Source of the DNA: a virus
Lineage: Duplodnaviria; Caudoviricetes
Length of the DNA: 48,095 nucleotides
IMG/VR virus record: IMGVR_UViG_3300005764_000025
Location: 1 to 48,095 of that record
Strand: one strand, 5' to 3'
Shown: piece by piece, positions 2,504 through 39,489 of the stretch
Layout of the letters: every line of letters starts with the position of its first letter
How positions within the stretch are numbered: the first letter of the stretch is position 1
Translations under genes and position numbers: made by a program
The notes under the pieces: model-generated
Database searches by the model: none
Told to the model about the DNA's origin: nothing
What the model saw: the letters and a program-made list of their open reading frames with translations, nothing else

Positions 2504-4552
2504 TTATCGCAGAAATCCGCCGCGCACGGGCCGCAACTGCCCTCCCGGCGCCGGGGAAACCGGGACGCCGGCGGGCATCGGCGCTTCCGGACGAGCGGCC
2601 GGCGGCGTTTCCGGCTTCTCCAGCGGCTCGACGGCGGTTTCGAGCTTCCTCCAGGCCTCTTCCGTGAAGCGGTCGATGCCCACAATCGACGCCGCGCCGC
2701 GGTTATAGACCGCCAGATCGAGCGGCTCGTTGCGCTTGTAGCGCTGTTCGTACTCCACTTTCCCGGCTTCGGTCACGATCCGGACCTCCGCAGTCAGGCC
2801 TTCGAAGTAGACCATGTCGTAGAGCGGGAAGTGGTGGCATCCCGGCGACGGCGAATCGTCCGGATGCGGGAGCGCGTGCCGCAACAGATCGAAGATCTCG
2901 CCCTTCGCGCAGTGCGTGCCGATCCCGATGATGCGGATTCCTTGCCGGCGGCGGGCCGCGTCCTCTTTCGAGATCGATGCGATGATCCGGAGCGCATCCG
3001 GCGTGCCTTTGACCGGGACGATGGTCCGGTGCGCGACGAGCTTGATCCCTCCCGGCCCGTAGTGCAACTGGCGGTGACCAGGCCGGCGCGTGAACTCGTA
3101 CACGGGCTTCGGATTCCGTCCGGTGTCGATGCACATCGCGAGGATCGGCAGGTAATGCCCGCTGGCGTGGAGCCAGTCGCGCTGAAGCAACTCCTCAAGC
3201 TGGTCCCACAACTCCGCGGAAGTGACCGGAAGCTCCTGGCCGTTCGACGCGAACGCCTGCAGAACCCAGTAGCCGATGCTCCAGTTCTCTCTTCCTCGGC
3301 CCCACGCCTTCACTTCGACCTCGAGCCGCGGCGGATGCTCCTGAACGTCAGCCGCCGCCGTCAGGAACAGGCCTCTCTGCGGAATCACCGCCGCATCCCC
3401 GAACGCATACGCCTCGCGCCGCGCAAACAGCTTCTCTTTTTCCGGGGCCTCGCCTTCCTCGACCCATTCCTCCGCGAGAACCGTATTGATGAACGTCTTC
3501 AGGTTCTGCCGGTCATCCTTCGCCGTCAGGAAGTGCCGGGTGATATCGGAGCACCGCTTCCATTGCGGCGGCACGTACAGGTGATTCACCCAGAATCCCG
3601 CCACCTTCCCGTCCGTCAGCGGATTCTCGACGCGCCATTCCACGTCGTTCACGGCCCGCCAGCGCTCCTGTTCCGTCCACGGGCGGTCGCACTTCACGCA
3701 GTGATACCGCGCCGTCGCCGGCCGCATCGATTCCGACACGCTCGAATCCCACTTCACGTGGTAGCCCGTCTTGTCGCGGAACCGCAGGACCTGGCGGAAG
3801 CCGCAATGCGGACACGCGGCATACGGTTTCCTCTGATCGCTCTGCTGATACGCCTTCCCGATCCGGCTCACTCCCGCGACCGTGGGGCTGCACGCCATCA
3901 CGCGCTTCCGCCGGCTCCCATACGTCATGGCGCGTTCCCACGCCAGATCCACGGCATCGCCTTCGCCCTGTCGCTGAACGCTCCCGCCTACATCCTCGCT
4001 GTACTTGTCGATCTCGTCGCACACCAGATAGCGGATCGTATGCTGCGCGAGGTCAATCGGCGTGCGAGCTGAGACGATCAGCAGATTCCCGCCGGGAAAT
4101 TCTTTCGACAGCGTCGTTGACGAACCTTCATGCACACTGTCCGAGAGCTTTCCCTTCAGCGCAGGGCAATCCCGGCTCATCGGCGCGAGTCTCCGTTTGC
4201 TGAACTGAGTCGCCGCGTCCTTCTTCGGCTCCACCAGCAGAATCGGACCCGGATCTGTGACGATCCAATACGCGATCGCGCACATGATCGCGAGACTCTT
4301 CACCAACTGAGTCCCGCTCATGATGATCACCTGTTCGATCGACGGATCGCTGATCGCGTCGAAGATCCCCCTCTGCCAGCCGTAGAGTTGCAGATTGCCC
4401 GTCGCCGCCGAATACTCGGGCGAGAGAACGATGTTCTTCTCGCTCCACTCAGCCAGATTCAGCCATCTGTGAACCTTGAATACTTCGCGGAATTCCTGAA
4501 AGAGAGGCGGTGGATACGGGAAACCGATCTCCTGAAACTCCTCGATCGTCAC
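2504..4552 (-). CDS. terL: Terminase large subunit, GpA family
   Basis: DPGPILLVEP, EFPGG, Walker B YLVCDEID, CSPT, CPHCG...CVKC zinc module, FINTVLAEEW, NEPLDLAVY; GTG start overlaps terS stop (GTGA). Confidence 0.93.
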   Translation of the reverse strand: MTIEEFQEIGFPYPPPLFQEFREVFKVHRWLNLAEWSEKNIVLSPEYSAATGNLQLYGWQRGIFDAISDPSIEQVIIMSGTQLVKSLAIMCAIAYWIVTDPGPILLVEPKKDAATQFSKRRLAPMSRDCPALKGKLSDSVHEGSSTTLSKEFPGGNLLIVSARTPIDLAQHTIRYLVCDEIDKYSEDVGGSVQRQGEGDAVDLAWERAMTYGSRRKRVMACSPTVAGVSRIGKAYQQSDQRKPYAACPHCGFRQVLRFRDKTGYHVKWDSSVSESMRPATARYHCVKCDRPWTEQERWRAVNDVEWRVENPLTDGKVAGFWVNHLYVPPQWKRCSDITRHFLTAKDDRQNLKTFINTVLAEEWVEEGEAPEKEKLFARREAYAFGDAAVIPQRGLFLTAAADVQEHPPRLEVEVKAWGRGRENWSIGYWVLQAFASNGQELPVTSAELWDQLEELLQRDWLHASGHYLPILAMCIDTGRNPKPVYEFTRRPGHRQLHYGPGGIKLVAHRTIVPVKGTPDALRIIASISKEDAARRRQGIRIIGIGTHCAKGEIFDLLRHALPHPDDSPSPGCHHFPLYDMVYFEGLTAEVRIVTEAGKVEYEQRYKRNEPLDLAVYNRGAASIVGIDRFTEEAWRKLETAVEPLEKPETPPAARPEAPMPAGVPVSPAPGGQLRPVRGGFLR

Positions 4553-5142
4553 GCGACCTTCTCTTCTTCCCGGCCTTCGCCCCAGAGTGTCTCCAACTCG
4601 TACAGCTTGTTGAGCACGCTCTCGACCCAAACCTGGAGAATGGCGCCGCACTTCTTCGGATCGTTTTCGAGCGACAACTTGTCCTGTAGCTCGGACGGCC
4701 CTTTCTCAAGCGTGTCCCGACTGGCTTGCAGAAACTTGATCGCCCAGTGCCGCACATAGACCACCGGAACCAGTTCGCTGCGCTTCTGCCTATTCGTGAT
4801 CTCCTGCCCTTCCGCCAGCGCCTTGGCGCGGCGCAATTTCATCGCCTCGGTCTGATCGCGGATACCCTGCAAGCGGAGGAGAGCCTCATATTCGGTCTTC
4901 TCCTCTTCCGTCTCTTCGCCTGTATCCGGCTTCGAAGCGGTCTGCTGCTTCCTCGCCGGCGGCAACGCTTCCGCCATCTCCTGTTTTGCTTTGCTACGGA
5001 TTTTGGCATACGCCCTGATCTGATCCGGCGTCTCACCTTTTCGCATGTGATCGCTGATCGTGGAAGCGGATAATCCCGTCTCCCGCGCCAACGCGCTCAC
5101 GCCCACATTCTCGATCCGTTGCCGCGGCGAACGCTTTCCCAT
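4549..5142 (-). CDS. terS: Terminase small subunit (Nu1-like)
   Basis: N-terminal HTH (VSALARETGLSASTIS), coiled coil and ELVPV motif; coupled to terL. Confidence 0.75.
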   Translation of the reverse strand: MGKRSPRQRIENVGVSALARETGLSASTISDHMRKGETPDQIRAYAKIRSKAKQEMAEALPPARKQQTASKPDTGEETEEEKTEYEALLRLQGIRDQTEAMKLRRAKALAEGQEITNRQKRSELVPVVYVRHWAIKFLQASRDTLEKGPSELQDKLSLENDPKKCGAILQVWVESVLNKLYELETLWGEGREEEKVA

Positions 5143-6074: not shown

Positions 6075-6308
6075 ATGACAACGAGCACGATGTGGGATTC
6101 GAGATGCAAGAGCGGTTACCAGTGGGATACAGGGCGCCGCACACGCCTACTCAAGCGCACGGTTTGGAAACAGTGCAATCAGATGACGGCTCGTGGTGAA
6201 GTCTTATGCCATGACTGCCATGCGCTGTTAGAGGTATCTCTTAGTGCGACTCACAATGCGGCTCACGCCAGCGAAAATATTTTCGTCGTGATCGAGCAAT
6301 TCGCTTGA
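6075..6308 (+). CDS. Hypothetical early protein (77 aa)
   Basis: GGAG SD and GAAC-rich leader; CHDC motif. Confidence 0.6.
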   Translation: MTTSTMWDSRCKSGYQWDTGRRTRLLKRTVWKQCNQMTARGEVLCHDCHALLEVSLSATHNAAHASENIFVVIEQFA

Positions 6309-6333
6309 TTCGTGGCACGAATCATGAGACGAT
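6305..6333 (+). promoter_or_regulatory. Sigma70-type promoter with palindromic operator, copy 1
   Basis: TTGATT-17 nt-GACGAT (TGn extended); perfect palindrome TGATTCGTG-G-CACGAATCA at 6306-6324. Confidence 0.7.
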
Positions 6334-6352
6334 CATAGAGTCAATGGAACGA

Positions 6353-7156
6353 ATGAACATGACGAACACGAAAGCAACCACGAAACGCAAGCGCAAGACC
6401 ACGGTCCTGATTCGGCGCCCAAAGGGCTATCGCGCCGTTTTAACTTGCGACAATGCCAAAACGAGCAAGGGTGAAGCGTTAGGCTACCGGACGGGTATCT
6501 GCTATCTGGCGCCTGGAAACGAAAGCGGAGTCATCAATACTTGCACGTATGCCAGCAAGGGTTGTCTTGAGGCTTGCCTATTTCGTGCTGGTAGAGGCGC
6601 CTTTCCAAAGACCATTCGCCAGCGCATTGCAAAGACACTTTTCCTCGTTGAGAATCGCGAGTTGTTCTTAGCTTCGCTTCGCACGGACATTCTCGCCTTG
6701 ATTCGAGATTCAGCCGATATGGGGATGATTCCAGCCGTTCGTATGAATGGCACCTCTGATCTCGCATGGCTAGGAATGCAGATGAGTAAAGAGTTTCCAT
6801 CCGTCATGTTCTATGACTATACGAAGCTTCCGAAACCCTATCTGCGTCAACGAGCCAACTATCGGCTCACGTTCTCTTACTCCGGGCATAACCTCAATGA
6901 TGCATTGGATGCGCTGAAACATGGCGTGAATGTCGCCGTGGTCTTCGATACGCGCAAAGGTCAAGACTTGCCTGTTTCGTGGAACGGGTATCGCGTGATT
7001 GACGGCGACACGCATGATTTGCGTTTTCTGGACACCGAGTCCGTGGTAGTTGGACTCCGTGCCAAAGGGCCAGCCAGGAAACAGGATTCGGCTTTCATTG
7101 TGAAGACTAACGGCACGGCTCCACTGTCGAATCCGTTCGTGGTGCTAGTCGCCTAA
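6353..7156 (+). CDS. Phage GP88-like protein (Fe-S/radical-SAM-like Cys motif)
   Basis: CTYASKGCLEAC, AVRMNGTSD, FYDYTK, LTFSYS, IDGDTHDLRFLD, VVGLRAKG motifs; start at 6353 or 6359, downstream of the promoter. Confidence 0.75.
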   Translation: MNMTNTKATTKRKRKTTVLIRRPKGYRAVLTCDNAKTSKGEALGYRTGICYLAPGNESGVINTCTYASKGCLEACLFRAGRGAFPKTIRQRIAKTLFLVENRELFLASLRTDILALIRDSADMGMIPAVRMNGTSDLAWLGMQMSKEFPSVMFYDYTKLPKPYLRQRANYRLTFSYSGHNLNDALDALKHGVNVAVVFDTRKGQDLPVSWNGYRVIDGDTHDLRFLDTESVVVGLRAKGPARKQDSAFIVKTNGTAPLSNPFVVLVA

Positions 7157-7213
7157 CTCCACTGATGAGCCGTTGCGACCACGGCGAAACGGCGCGAACG
7201 GCGCCGTCTGGAG
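7157..7213 (+). ncRNA. Type I hammerhead ribozyme HH1
   Basis: Stem I CTCCA/TGGAG, core CTGATGA, stem II GCCGT/ACGGC, GAAA, stem III ACGGCGC/GCGCCGT, GUC cleavage after 7208. Confidence 0.95.
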
Positions 7214-7223
7214 ACACCGAAAC

Positions 7224-7508
7224 ATGCACACAACAGACGAACAACGCAAAAGCCTTCAGCCATACGCATGGCCTGGAGGTTATCCCGTCATGTATATGGC
7301 TGTAGGTGGCTGGCGTGATGAGGAAACGGGAAAACTGGAGGTCAATGACCGTGAAGAGTTCGTCTGTTGCGCGAAGTGTGCGGTTGATACTCAACAATGG
7401 CCTGATTTGGTGATTATCGGTCACTACGTCCACTATGAAGGTCCTCCTGAAGAGTGCGAGTACTGTAATTCGTTCACGGAGTCCGCATACGGCGACCCAA
7501 ACGAGTAA
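7224..7508 (+). CDS. Small phage protein with YAWPGGYP motif and CxxC pairs (94 aa)
   Basis: ATG 7224, about 10 nt after the GGAG in HH1 stem I; TAA abuts HH2. Confidence 0.8.
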   Translation: MHTTDEQRKSLQPYAWPGGYPVMYMAVGGWRDEETGKLEVNDREEFVCCAKCAVDTQQWPDLVIIGHYVHYEGPPEECEYCNSFTESAYGDPNE

Positions 7509-7564
7509 CTCCACTGATGAGCCGTGGCGCGGCGAAACGAGCGGCCAATCCGTTCGTCTTGAAG
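7509..7564 (+). ncRNA. Type I hammerhead ribozyme HH2 (stem I mismatched)
   Basis: CTGATGA, stem II GCCG/CGGC, GAAA, stem III ACGAGCGG/CCGTTCGT, GUC cleavage after 7558; stem I is CTCCA versus TTGAA, only 3 of 5 pairs. Confidence 0.8.
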
Positions 7565-7574
7565 GTATCGAATT

Positions 7575-7778
7575 TTGAAGGTATACGGTGAAACACTCCG
7601 TGAATTGACCACGGACGAATTGAACGCGCTACGCAAGTACGCCAGCATTCACGGTCGCAATTGGAAGTCCGCACTCCGTGACCAGTGGGAACGTGCAAGC
7701 GCCATAGGCCCGTTGCATGCGCTCCGCAATTCGCATGGGCCTACATGGCTGGTCCGTTTCCGCTTGCCTAAAGCGTAA
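7575..7778 (+). CDS. Small phage protein (67 aa)
   Basis: TTG start after GAAGGT; YA..HGRNWKSAL...W...LRNSHGPTWL motif recalled from phage proteins; TAA abuts HH3. Confidence 0.75.
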   Translation: MKVYGETLRELTTDELNALRKYASIHGRNWKSALRDQWERASAIGPLHALRNSHGPTWLVRFRLPKA

Positions 7779-7839
7779 CTCCACTGAAGAGCCATTGAAA
7801 CACTGGCGAAACGGCGCGGCGGTATCGCGCCGTATGGAG
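7779..7839 (+). ncRNA. Type I hammerhead ribozyme HH3
   Basis: Stem I CTCCA/TGGAG, core CTGAAGA, stem II GCCA/TGGC, GAAA, stem III ACGGCGCG/CGCGCCGT, GUA cleavage after 7834. Confidence 0.93.
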
Positions 7840-7847
7840 GAAACGGA

Positions 7848-8028
7848 TTGACGCTCCAAAAGGCAATCGAGTATGCGCAGTTTTGCGCGAACACTTCGAA
7901 GCGGCTCACTCCGCACGAAGCTTATGAGATCCGTATCGCGCCATGAAGTTTACGGGTACGGTGGCGCCATGCATCGTAGTTACGCTTTGCGCACCTTGCG
8001 TGATGCGATAGAGCGGAGTGCGCAATGA
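7848..8028 (+). pseudogene. Small gene apparently split by a frameshift
   Basis: TTG 7848 after GGAGG gives 32 aa (stop 7944-7946); the +1 frame (ATG 7924 to TGA 8028) continues and ends overlapping the next ATG. Confidence 0.4.
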
Positions 8029-8550: not shown

Positions 8551-8553
8551 ATC

Positions 8554-8582
8554 TTGATTCGTGCCACGAATCATGAGACGAT
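8554..8582 (+). promoter_or_regulatory. Sigma70-type promoter with palindromic operator, copy 2
   Basis: TTGATT-17 nt-GACGAT; TGATTCGTG-C-CACGAATCA at 8555-8573; near-identical to copy 1. Confidence 0.7.
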
Positions 8583-8611
8583 CTAAGAGAAGTCGGGAGG
8601 AAACGAAACGA

Positions 8612-11370: not shown

Positions 11371-11373
11371 TTC

Positions 11374-11402
11374 TTGCTTTGTGTCACGAATCAAGATAGG
11401 AT
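11374..11402 (+). promoter_or_regulatory. Sigma70-type promoter with degenerate operator, copy 3
   Basis: TTGCTT-17 nt-TAGGAT; keeps the CACGAATCA half-site. Confidence 0.7.
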
Positions 11403-11456
11403 TGAGAAGTAGTCGATGACGCCGCGAAGACGGCGGATCGAAAGGAGCGAACGAAC

Positions 11457-11786
11457 ATGACGAAGATTGAGCAGTTTTTCTACGACAACGGCGCCACTAG
11501 TTGGAATCCACAAACCGAAACGCAAGAGCAAGGGCGTGAGCGTGGCGCGAAAGAACTCGCGGCGGCTGAACAGCACGCCTTGGAACAGAACTGGCACTTC
11601 GATTGGGATGCGGATGATCCTTGTGATCACGAAGACGGTGTCTGCTCCCGCGAACCGGAATACTGCCAACTGTGGGATGCGGAGCGAGAAAACTTACTGG
11701 CTTCGTTATCGATGATCTGCGATGCGGATGACAACTATCGGCGCGTGGTTCAGGCTGAACTCGCGTTGGAAGCGATGGGACGGTAG
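11457..11786 (+). CDS. Acidic hypothetical protein (109 aa)
   Basis: AGGAG SD and CGAACGAAC leader. Confidence 0.75.
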   Translation: MTKIEQFFYDNGATSWNPQTETQEQGRERGAKELAAAEQHALEQNWHFDWDADDPCDHEDGVCSREPEYCQLWDAERENLLASLSMICDADDNYRRVVQAELALEAMGR

Positions 11787-11813
11787 ATCCCAACAAACGG
11801 GAGACGAACGAAC

Positions 11814-39180: not shown

Positions 39181-39489
39181 ATGCAAAAAGCATTTTCACT
39201 ACAACCGAATGAACTTCAGCAGAGTCAGGCGCTCGAAAGCGAACGGCTCGAGCTTTTGGCGCAACTCGGCTCGATGCAACTTGAGAACGAGCGCATCCGC
39301 GCACGGCTCCCGCAAGTGATCGAACTACAGAGAAAACTGGTGCAAGGGGCGGTTCAGCGCCTCGGCATTGAGCGGTATAACGTGGCGCATATCGACCGGA
39401 CCAACGTGATCGTGGACCTTCCGGACGAGCAAGCGTCTCTTCCGACAACTGATGAGAACGCGCACCCCAATGGCGTAGCGAAACTGTAG
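39181..39489 (+). CDS. Coiled-coil fibre-associated protein
   Basis: AAGGAG SD; Gln/Leu-rich. Confidence 0.65.
   Translation: MQKAFSLQPNELQQSQALESERLELLAQLGSMQLENERIRARLPQVIELQRKLVQGAVQRLGIERYNVAHIDRTNVIVDLPDEQASLPTTDENAHPNGVAKL

What the first reader, a model, noticed from the sequence alone, without database searches (positions are those of the whole stretch)
7148..7850. Ribozymes are wired to translation on both sides: stop codon, pseudoknot and sequestered SD
Each hammerhead starts at the base after a TAA, so a terminating ribosome would cover stem I and the catalytic core. In HH1, loop II GCGAC (7175-7179) can pair with GTCGC (7148-7152), the last codons of the upstream gene. The 3' strand of stem I holds the next gene's SD (GGAG, GAAGGT, GGAGG). 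Cleavage or upstream translation would expose the SD, making a natural translation-coupled ribozyme switch.
Basis: partly seen in the sequence, partly recalled or inferred. Interest (0 to 1): 0.75.

Follow-up and report, generated by a model that had tools for sequence, protein, structure and literature searches.

The report
Phage hammerheads that hide ribosome sites
Three hammerhead ribozyme motifs sit between early genes of a phage, each directly after a stop codon, and two of them pair the next gene's ribosome-binding site into their closing helix, so self-cutting would likely free that site; the layout recurs in other phages, but a true translation-controlled switch is not supported.

Summary
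The anatomy is real: three copies of one type I hammerhead (7157, 7509, 7779) each follow an in-frame TAA. HH1 and HH3 are intact and pair the next gene's GGAG in stem I. HH2's stem I is broken (3 of 5 pairs), so it masks nothing.

In other phage and metagenome type I hammerheads, GGAG in stem I goes with an ATG 10-17 nt after the cut (21 of 26, against 1 of 81 otherwise), so SD masking is a recurring design. A stop abuts 74 of 112 ribozymes, but equally often with or without SD masking (17/26 vs 57/86), which fits compaction rather than one wired switch.

The HH1 pseudoknot is weak: absent in 27 relatives and at the orthologous GP88 junction, and synonymous codons give it one time in three. 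Cutting and ribosome passage are both predicted to open the SD, so no lasting OFF state exists at HH1. HH3 has an unnoticed 10-bp helix from upstream codons over the ribosome site.

Clustered phage hammerheads are known (Perreault 2011), and this scan noted SD-masking hammerheads on other genomes before. Verdict: new variant of a known kind; cleavage untested.

The parts
6304..6334 (+). Repeated palindromic promoter/operator-like element that likely starts this transcript (other copies near 8553 and 11373)
   Evidence: Repeat family D3 and inverted repeats I1-I3; promoter role inferred, not found by the sigma-70 scan
6359..7156 (+). GP88-family gene, ends Val-Leu-Val-Ala-TAA
   Evidence: Pfam PF17338 E 3.6e-36; phrog_1617
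7148..7152 (+). GTCGC (Val-Ala codons), possible pseudoknot partner of HH1 loop II; doubtful
   Evidence: 5 WC pairs; chance 0.33 under synonymous recoding; not pairable in orthologue L186
7157..7213 (+). HH1, intact type I hammerhead: stem I 7157-61/7209-13, core 7162-68, stem II 7169-73/7181-85, GAAA 7186-89, stem III 7189-95/7201-07, predicted cut after C7208; SD GGAG 7210-13
   Evidence: Descriptor; folding, (hammerhead fold -25.4, competing inactive fold -26.0 kcal/mol)
7224..7508 (+). 94-codon gene (YAWPGGYP, Cys-pair family), ATG 10 nt after the GGAG
   Evidence: 89 homologues among 98 candidates; start position matches homologues
7509..7563 (+). HH2, degenerate copy: core, stem II (4 bp) and stem III (8 bp) intact, predicted cut site after C7558, stem I only 3 of 5 pairs; followed by a 10-nt duplication (7559-68, 7575-84)
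7575..7778 (+). 67-codon gene (HGRNWKS family); TTG start uncertain
   Evidence: 5 homologues besides itself
7751..7760 (+). Coding tract complementary to the RBS spacer and start codon behind HH3 (7840-7849); predicted to extend stem I by 10 pairs (8 WC + 2 GU)
   Evidence: chance 0.013 against genome windows, 0.022 under synonymous recoding; not a family feature
7779..7839 (+). HH3, intact type I hammerhead: stem I 7779-83/7835-39, core 7784-90, stem II 7791-94/7804-07, GAAA 7808-11, stem III 7811-19/7825-33, predicted cut after A7834 (GUA); SD GGAGG 7836-40
   Evidence: Descriptor; the hammerhead fold is the predicted minimum-energy fold
7848..7946 (+). 32-codon ORF with TTG start behind HH3; unverified as a gene; holds CTCCA 7854-58 that can re-pair with the SD
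   Evidence: No family hit, no Atlas hit; folding

Best explanation
HH1 and HH3 are intact type I hammerhead motifs that likely cut the phage's early polycistronic mRNA constitutively into single-gene pieces, and because the next gene's Shine-Dalgarno is one strand of stem I, cutting would free it at the new 5' end. Each downstream piece would begin 5'-OH-UGGAG, with the start codon 13-15 nt from the cut; the upstream piece would keep stems II and III as a structured 3' end. A ribosome ending at the abutting stop would melt stem I for a moment, which would slow the cut and open the same SD. Both routes lead to ON, so the element acts as punctuation with a short delay and a fail-safe that uncouples each gene from its neighbour, not as a two-state switch. 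The stop abuts because spacer DNA is lost up to the ribozyme's edge. HH2 is a decayed or weak copy that no longer masks its SD. Shown: sequence anatomy, recurrence, independence of the two overlaps. Inferred: cleavage, its effect on translation, the ribosome effect.
For: Core and stems meet the criteria of Perreault 2011 for HH1 and HH3. A search with the 5' half only brought up the matching stem III, UH site and stem I in 94 (type I) + 11 (type III) of 115 distinct viral matches and in 29 of 33 other metagenome loci. Clustered prophage hammerheads cleave in vitro and in E. coli (PMC3088659). ATG at 10-17 nt from the cut in 21 of 26 GGAG-stem ribozymes vs 1 of 81 others; CUCCC/GGGAG variants keep both pairing and GGAG (L145, L164). 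Median SD unpaired probability 0.23 in precursor, 0.56 with the upstream strand blocked, 0.58 in the released product (n 26). Stop-abutment is independent of SD masking. At ordinary junctions of the same loci the SD overlaps the upstream ORF in 42 of 88 scored (168 examined, 80 unscored; crude). Ribozymes come and go at junctions: L164 has one behind the 76%-identical homologue of 11457-11786, where the window has none; 85 of 88 loci of the two enclosed gene families have none.
Against: No cleavage or expression data for this phage. HH1 has an inactive fold of equal energy (hammerhead stems II and III only 0.27 probable without the pseudoknot), so it may cut slowly or depend on the pseudoknot. 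For HH3, cutting alone is not predicted to open the SD (0.25) and the products would stay paired by about -11 kcal/mol. Masking is predicted to be strong (<0.2 unpaired) in only 12 of 26 relatives. The stop peak is very sharp (52 stops at 4-5 nt from the core among 112 ribozymes), which selection for ribosome contact would also give. The relatives are not phylogenetically independent.
Confidence: 0.55

Rival explanations
1. Translation-sensing switch: ribosomes ending at the stop keep the ribozyme unfolded, so the mRNA is cut only when upstream translation fails; the pseudoknot with the last codons (HH1) and the 10-bp helix with upstream codons (HH3) are the sensing arms.
For: 74 of 112 ribozymes have a long-ORF stop 3-10 nt before the core vs 1-4 of 112 at shifted anchors; all three stop codons are used. 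Ribosomes near a stop can mask terminator hairpins (PMC7858274). Holding the pseudoknot bases out of other pairings turns HH1's predicted fold into the hammerhead fold. The HH3 helix is unlikely by chance (0.013-0.022). In one lineage three different genes read in frame through stem I and the core to a TAA in loop II (L163, L171, L176).
Against: Stop-abutment is not linked to SD masking (p = 1.0). 5' pseudoknot absent in 0 of 27 relatives of the class and at the orthologous junction. Upstream-to-RBS pairing is not enriched in the family (763 of 2000 permutations as strong). Both inputs open the SD, so there is no distinct OFF output at HH1.
Confidence: 0.2
2. Economy only: the SD merged into stem I by compaction and masking does not matter, because cutting is faster than initiation or the 30S subunit outcompetes a 5-bp helix. 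The benefit of the ribozyme lies in mRNA stability or in cutting nascent RNA away from upstream Rho or nuclease entry.
For: Most type I relatives (81 of 107 after removing duplicates) keep the SD outside stem I, as do the 9 type II motifs. UGGAG differs from the common UGGG/UGGC strand by one or two bases. HH2 has lost the masking. A synthetic ribozyme insulator raises mRNA about twofold and protein two- to tenfold (PMC6206723).
Against: Predicted masking at HH1 and HH3 is near complete (0.00, 0.03); engineered hammerheads that release an SD by cutting do control translation (PMC5367253).
Confidence: 0.2
3. The copies are inactive relics or act mainly as DNA repeats for shuffling gene cassettes, like the other repeated modules of this early region.
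For: HH2 is degenerate; HH1 may misfold; the region has several other repeat families; genes change position relative to ribozymes (L164, L183).
Against: Core bases are intact in all three copies while stems III differ yet pair; the shared identical stretch is only about 18 nt.
Confidence: 0.05

Closest known systems
Clustered hammerhead ribozymes flanking single genes in prophages (Perreault et al. 2011, PMC3088659; passages and parts 2, 4, 5 of 8 read)
   Same: Several hammerheads flank short genes in a phage operon; same core consensus; loop II pseudoknots predicted in about 40% of hammerheads; proposed processing into single-gene mRNAs; one halovirus hammerhead lies 13 nt before a start codon.
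   Different: The main text has no occurrence of 'ribosome binding', 'Shine' or 'stop codon'; SD pairing in stem I and stop-abutment are not discussed in the parts read. Figures and supplements were not seen.
Engineered hammerhead aptazyme and thermozyme ON-switches in bacteria (review PMC5367253, passages read)
   Same: Cutting liberates an SD sequence and starts translation.
   Different: Those carry an aptamer or thermometer in stem III; here stem III is a plain hairpin with no sensor, and the design is natural.
RiboJ ribozyme insulator (PMC6206723, passages read)
   Same: Cutting separates a gene from upstream context and changes its output.
   Different: RiboJ is synthetic and leaves a hairpin at the new end; here the SD starts one base from the predicted new end.
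[quoted passage not shown]
   Same: Type I hammerhead filling a small intergenic gap with the cut a few bases before a start codon; linked to translation.
   Different: Eukaryotic hosts, no SD; the paper set DNA phage hits aside.

Membership tests
Hammerhead ribozyme, type I | Core C3-U4-G5-A6-N7-G8-A9, G12-A13-A14-A15, U16-H17 | tested here: met
   All three copies; criteria as in PMC3088659
Hammerhead ribozyme, type I | Core-adjacent pairs of stems I, II, III intact; stems II and III closed by loops, stem I open | tested here: met
   All three copies keep the core-adjacent pairs by sequence
Hammerhead ribozyme, type I | No multiple mispairs in short stems (HH1, HH3) | tested here: met
   Stems 5/5/7 and 5/4/9 pairs
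Hammerhead ribozyme, type I | No multiple mispairs in short stems (HH2) | tested here: not met
   Stem I 3 of 5 pairs, not formed in the ensemble; 108 of 115 relatives with a stem III have the first 4 pairs intact
Hammerhead ribozyme, type I | [quoted passage not shown] | tested here: inconclusive
   HH1 5-bp complement not beyond chance, none for HH2, a distant one for HH3; non-canonical contacts cannot be tested
Hammerhead ribozyme, type I | Site-specific self-cleavage | not testable with these tools
   No RNA reads available
Rfam hammerhead families (clan CL00010) | Score at or above the gathering threshold | tested here: not met
   No match at gathering; only partial matches to RF00008 at 20 and 19 bits vs 48.5
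Cleavage-gated SD (aptazyme-like) | Functional SD of the next gene paired in stem I | tested here: met
   HH1: GGAG 10 nt before a homologue-supported ATG; class-wide 21 of 26. HH3 depends on an unverified ORF; HH2 does not qualify
Cleavage-gated SD (aptazyme-like) | SD accessible after cleavage | tested here: inconclusive
   Predicted yes for HH1 (0.63), no for HH3 (0.25); above 0.5 in 16 of 26 relatives
Regulatory switch (riboswitch or attenuator type) | An input that selects between two lasting states with opposite output | tested here: inconclusive
   Both predicted inputs open the SD; stop and SD overlaps are independent; kinetics untested

The most novel reading that the evidence does not exclude
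A recurring class of phage type I hammerheads is the natural counterpart of engineered SD-releasing ribozyme switches, and upstream translation is its input: at HH1 the last codons hold the ribozyme out of an equally stable inactive fold, and at HH3 upstream codons clamp the whole ribosome site so that the next gene needs both a cut and a passing ribosome (an AND gate).
Probability: 0.2. Interest if true: 0.75.

Novelty: new variant of a known kind. Interest (0 to 1): 0.45.

Why it matters
What hammerheads do in phage operons is still open (PMC6765202: 'additional work is needed'). An SD inside stem I gives a concrete, cheap test: a core-dead mutant should silence the next gene. The comparison here also shows which part of the idea is worth testing (SD masking, recurrent) and which parts are weak (pseudoknot, joint wiring with the stop). 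The genome offers a natural series: an intact copy, a copy that lost masking, and a copy with extra clamping.

Tried and rejected
Rfam at gathering: nothing. Exact motif with TAA in viral contigs: 0. 19 GP88 loci from viral contigs: no hammerhead core with a stem II. Host assignment: the genome scan gave 2 matches, both without stems II and III, taken as chance; GenBank phages gave no match; host unknown. Sequencing runs: no RNA holder listed; one DNA contig covers 6300-8300 without differences but may be the source of the window. The fourth core-like match at 39449 fails the descriptor. The idea that TAA is a structural triplet, not a stop, was rejected: 52 of 64 stop triplets at 4-5 nt close a long frame vs 14 of 127 at 11-40 nt. 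The apparent match of longer SD with longer stem I (7 of 8) was set aside, because these share a short stem II type that also has 6-bp stems I without an SD. The 32-codon ORF behind HH3 could not be verified: no family or Atlas hit, no homologue of the overlapping 51-codon frame; the profile search of protein representatives did not run. Ten literature searches listed no paper on a natural SD inside a phage hammerhead stem; the library lacks most subscription papers, and no supplements were read.

Full report
Setting. The window is a whole 48,095-nt contig of a tailed phage: terminase large subunit at 2504-4651, portal, protease, capsid and tape measure at 17-31 kb. The finding lies in a run of short plus-strand genes with repeated promoter-like and leader modules, likely the early region. 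The host is unknown.

Observation. TAA-CTCCA-CTGANGA-GCC occurs three times (7154, 7506, 7776; 0.04 expected), and each TAA ends the upstream ORF in frame. HH1 and HH3 pass a strict type I hammerhead descriptor that none of 100 shuffled genomes passes; predicted cuts are after C7208 (GUC) and A7834 (GUA). HH2 keeps core, stem II and stem III, but CUCCA faces UUGAA (3 of 5 pairs) and stem I is not formed in the ensemble; 108 of 115 relatives with a stem III have four intact pairs there. A 10-nt duplication follows its cut site. No Rfam model reaches its threshold. The three copies descend from one element with the TAA included, so the window alone gives one event, not three.

Comparison set. 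Patterns covering only the 5' half of the ribozyme were run on viral and metagenome contigs. The unsearched 3' half was present in 94 type I and 11 type III of 115 distinct matches and in 29 of 33 metagenome loci other than the window's own contig L177, which was left out throughout. This gave 169 type I motifs, 112 after removing near-identical upstream flanks and 107 after removing near-identical downstream flanks. They are biased to a CCA stem I by the pattern and are not phylogenetically independent.

SD in stem I. Where the 3' strand of stem I reads GGAG, an ATG opening a long frame lies 10-17 nt from the cut in 21 of 26 cases; otherwise in 1 of 81, most lying 19-40 nt away behind a separate leader (Fisher p 1e-16). 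CUCCC/GGGAG copies found beside the searched ones keep both pairing and GGAG (L145, L164). For HH1 the ATG at 7224 matches the starts of homologues and the 10-nt spacing is like other leaders of this phage. Median predicted SD unpaired probability in the class is 0.23 before cutting, 0.56 with the upstream strand blocked and 0.58 in the released product; masking below 0.2 holds in 12 of 26 and opening above 0.5 in 16 of 26.

Stop codon. A stop closing at least 45 open codons lies 3-10 nt before the core in 74 of 112 ribozymes, against 1-4 of 112 at shifted anchors; the peak is at 4-5 nt and all three stop codons are used. A ribosome with the stop in its A site would cover stem I's 5' strand and the start of the core (footprint recalled, from no call), and ribosomes near stops can mask terminator hairpins (PMC7858274, passages). 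But abutment is the same with and without SD masking (17 of 26 vs 57 of 86, p 1.0), and 7 of 9 type II motifs found without pattern bias, whose SD lies outside, also abut a stop. At ordinary junctions of the same loci the SD overlaps the upstream ORF in 42 of 88 scored junctions (168 examined, 80 without a scored stop; crude calls). Compaction against a boundary that cannot be crossed explains the peak without a switch, though selection for contact is not excluded.

Pseudoknot. GCGAC pairs with GTCGC, p 0.03 for one loop and flank. Against it: 0 of 27 GGAG-class relatives and 11 of 92 others (9.9 expected) have 4 or more pairs with the 5' flank, whereas pairing with the 3' flank is enriched in the others (20 of 79 vs about 10). 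All 8 ribozyme-free GP88 homologues whose ends were read finish in Ala-Ala or Ile-Ala-Thr, and synonymous recoding of Val-Leu-Val-Ala yields the 5-bp match with probability 0.33. L186 carries the orthologous GP88-TAA-CTCCA junction and still has GTCGC upstream, but its loop II cannot pair with it. For it: HH1 has an inactive fold as stable as the hammerhead (-26.0 vs -25.4 kcal/mol) that uses loop II, and holding the pseudoknot bases aside gives the hammerhead fold. Such pseudoknots are a known tertiary contact in about 40% of hammerheads (PMC3088659). I put the chance that it matters in HH1 at about one in three.

Unnoticed feature at HH3. Coding bases 7751-60 can pair with 7840-49, covering the spacer and most of the TTG (8 WC + 2 GU); chance 0.013-0.022, with three ribozymes examined. 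The cut products would stay paired by about -11 kcal/mol, against -8 for HH1 and -5 for HH2 (ensemble differences). The released product can also re-pair its SD with CUCCA 7854-58 (unpaired 0.25). So cutting alone is not predicted to open HH3's SD. The pairing is not enriched in the family and the 32-codon ORF is unverified, so this is a local lead.

Mechanism. Most likely the intact copies cut the early mRNA into single-gene pieces, as proposed and shown in vitro and in E. coli for other clustered prophage hammerheads, and the cut frees an SD one base from the new 5' end, as in engineered designs (PMC5367253, passages). A terminating ribosome would open the same SD briefly and delay the cut. 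Since both routes give ON, the element is a delay and fail-safe, not a two-state switch. Ribozymes are optional at these junctions: 85 of 88 loci of the two enclosed gene families and 19 of 19 GP88 loci fetched by protein have none, and L164 has one where the window has only a 4-bp hairpin over GGGAG.

Novelty. Clustered phage hammerheads and their pseudoknots are known (PMC3088659: passages and parts 2, 4, 5 of 8 read; no supplements or figures); their purpose is called open in PMC6765202 (passages). PMC6206723 and PMC13725137 (passages) give analogies. Ten searches listed no paper on a natural SD inside a phage hammerhead stem; the library is incomplete and Perreault's alignments and figures may show it. 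This scan has noted the same layout on other genomes several times; those are unchecked notes and not independent support. Verdict: new variant of a known kind, interest 0.45.

Noticed in passing
L163:1506, L171:1182, L176:1506 (core position on the ribozyme strand): Three different upstream frames (93, 72, 103 open codons) read in frame through stem I, the core and stem II and stop at a TAA in loop II, all ending PPLTSR; the ribozyme supplies the stop for whichever gene precedes it.
   Followed up: partly
window 11784-11803: Stop codon followed by a 4-bp hairpin over GGGAG (-4.8 kcal/mol) at the junction where the related locus L164 has a full hammerhead; may be a ribozyme-less masking hairpin or a relic.
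   Followed up: partly
window 7142-7156; L001, L002, L006, L007, L018, L019, L186: GP88 homologues mostly end in a hydrophobic residue plus Ala-Ala, which resembles the ssrA/ClpX degradation tag (recalled).
   Followed up: no
window 6304-6334, 8553-8583, 11373-11403: Three copies of a palindromic promoter/operator-like element ahead of early gene blocks.
   Followed up: no
window 8472, 9496, 10842, 13770, 14529, 15704: Repeat family of about 50 nt (GGCGTAGGG...GGGGCTTTTT...AAAATCGG) between early gene blocks; function not examined.
   Followed up: no
window 6046, 6342, 8601, 9976, 11440, 11803, 14574, 15033: Repeated GAACGAACGAAC-type spacer directly before start codons, a start-associated leader motif.
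   Followed up: no
window 7559-7600: 10-nt duplication behind HH2; the second GAAGGT is followed by a GTG that is out of frame with the 67-codon gene, so this junction looks recently rearranged.
   Followed up: partly
L223:737-3105: Seven type II hammerheads in 2.4 kb, two of which flank a homologue of the 7224-7508 gene; SD outside the ribozyme.
   Followed up: partly
L022, L028, L041, L020 and others: Many non-SD type I hammerheads pair loop II with the 3' flank just behind stem I (20 of 79 vs about 10 expected).
   Followed up: partly
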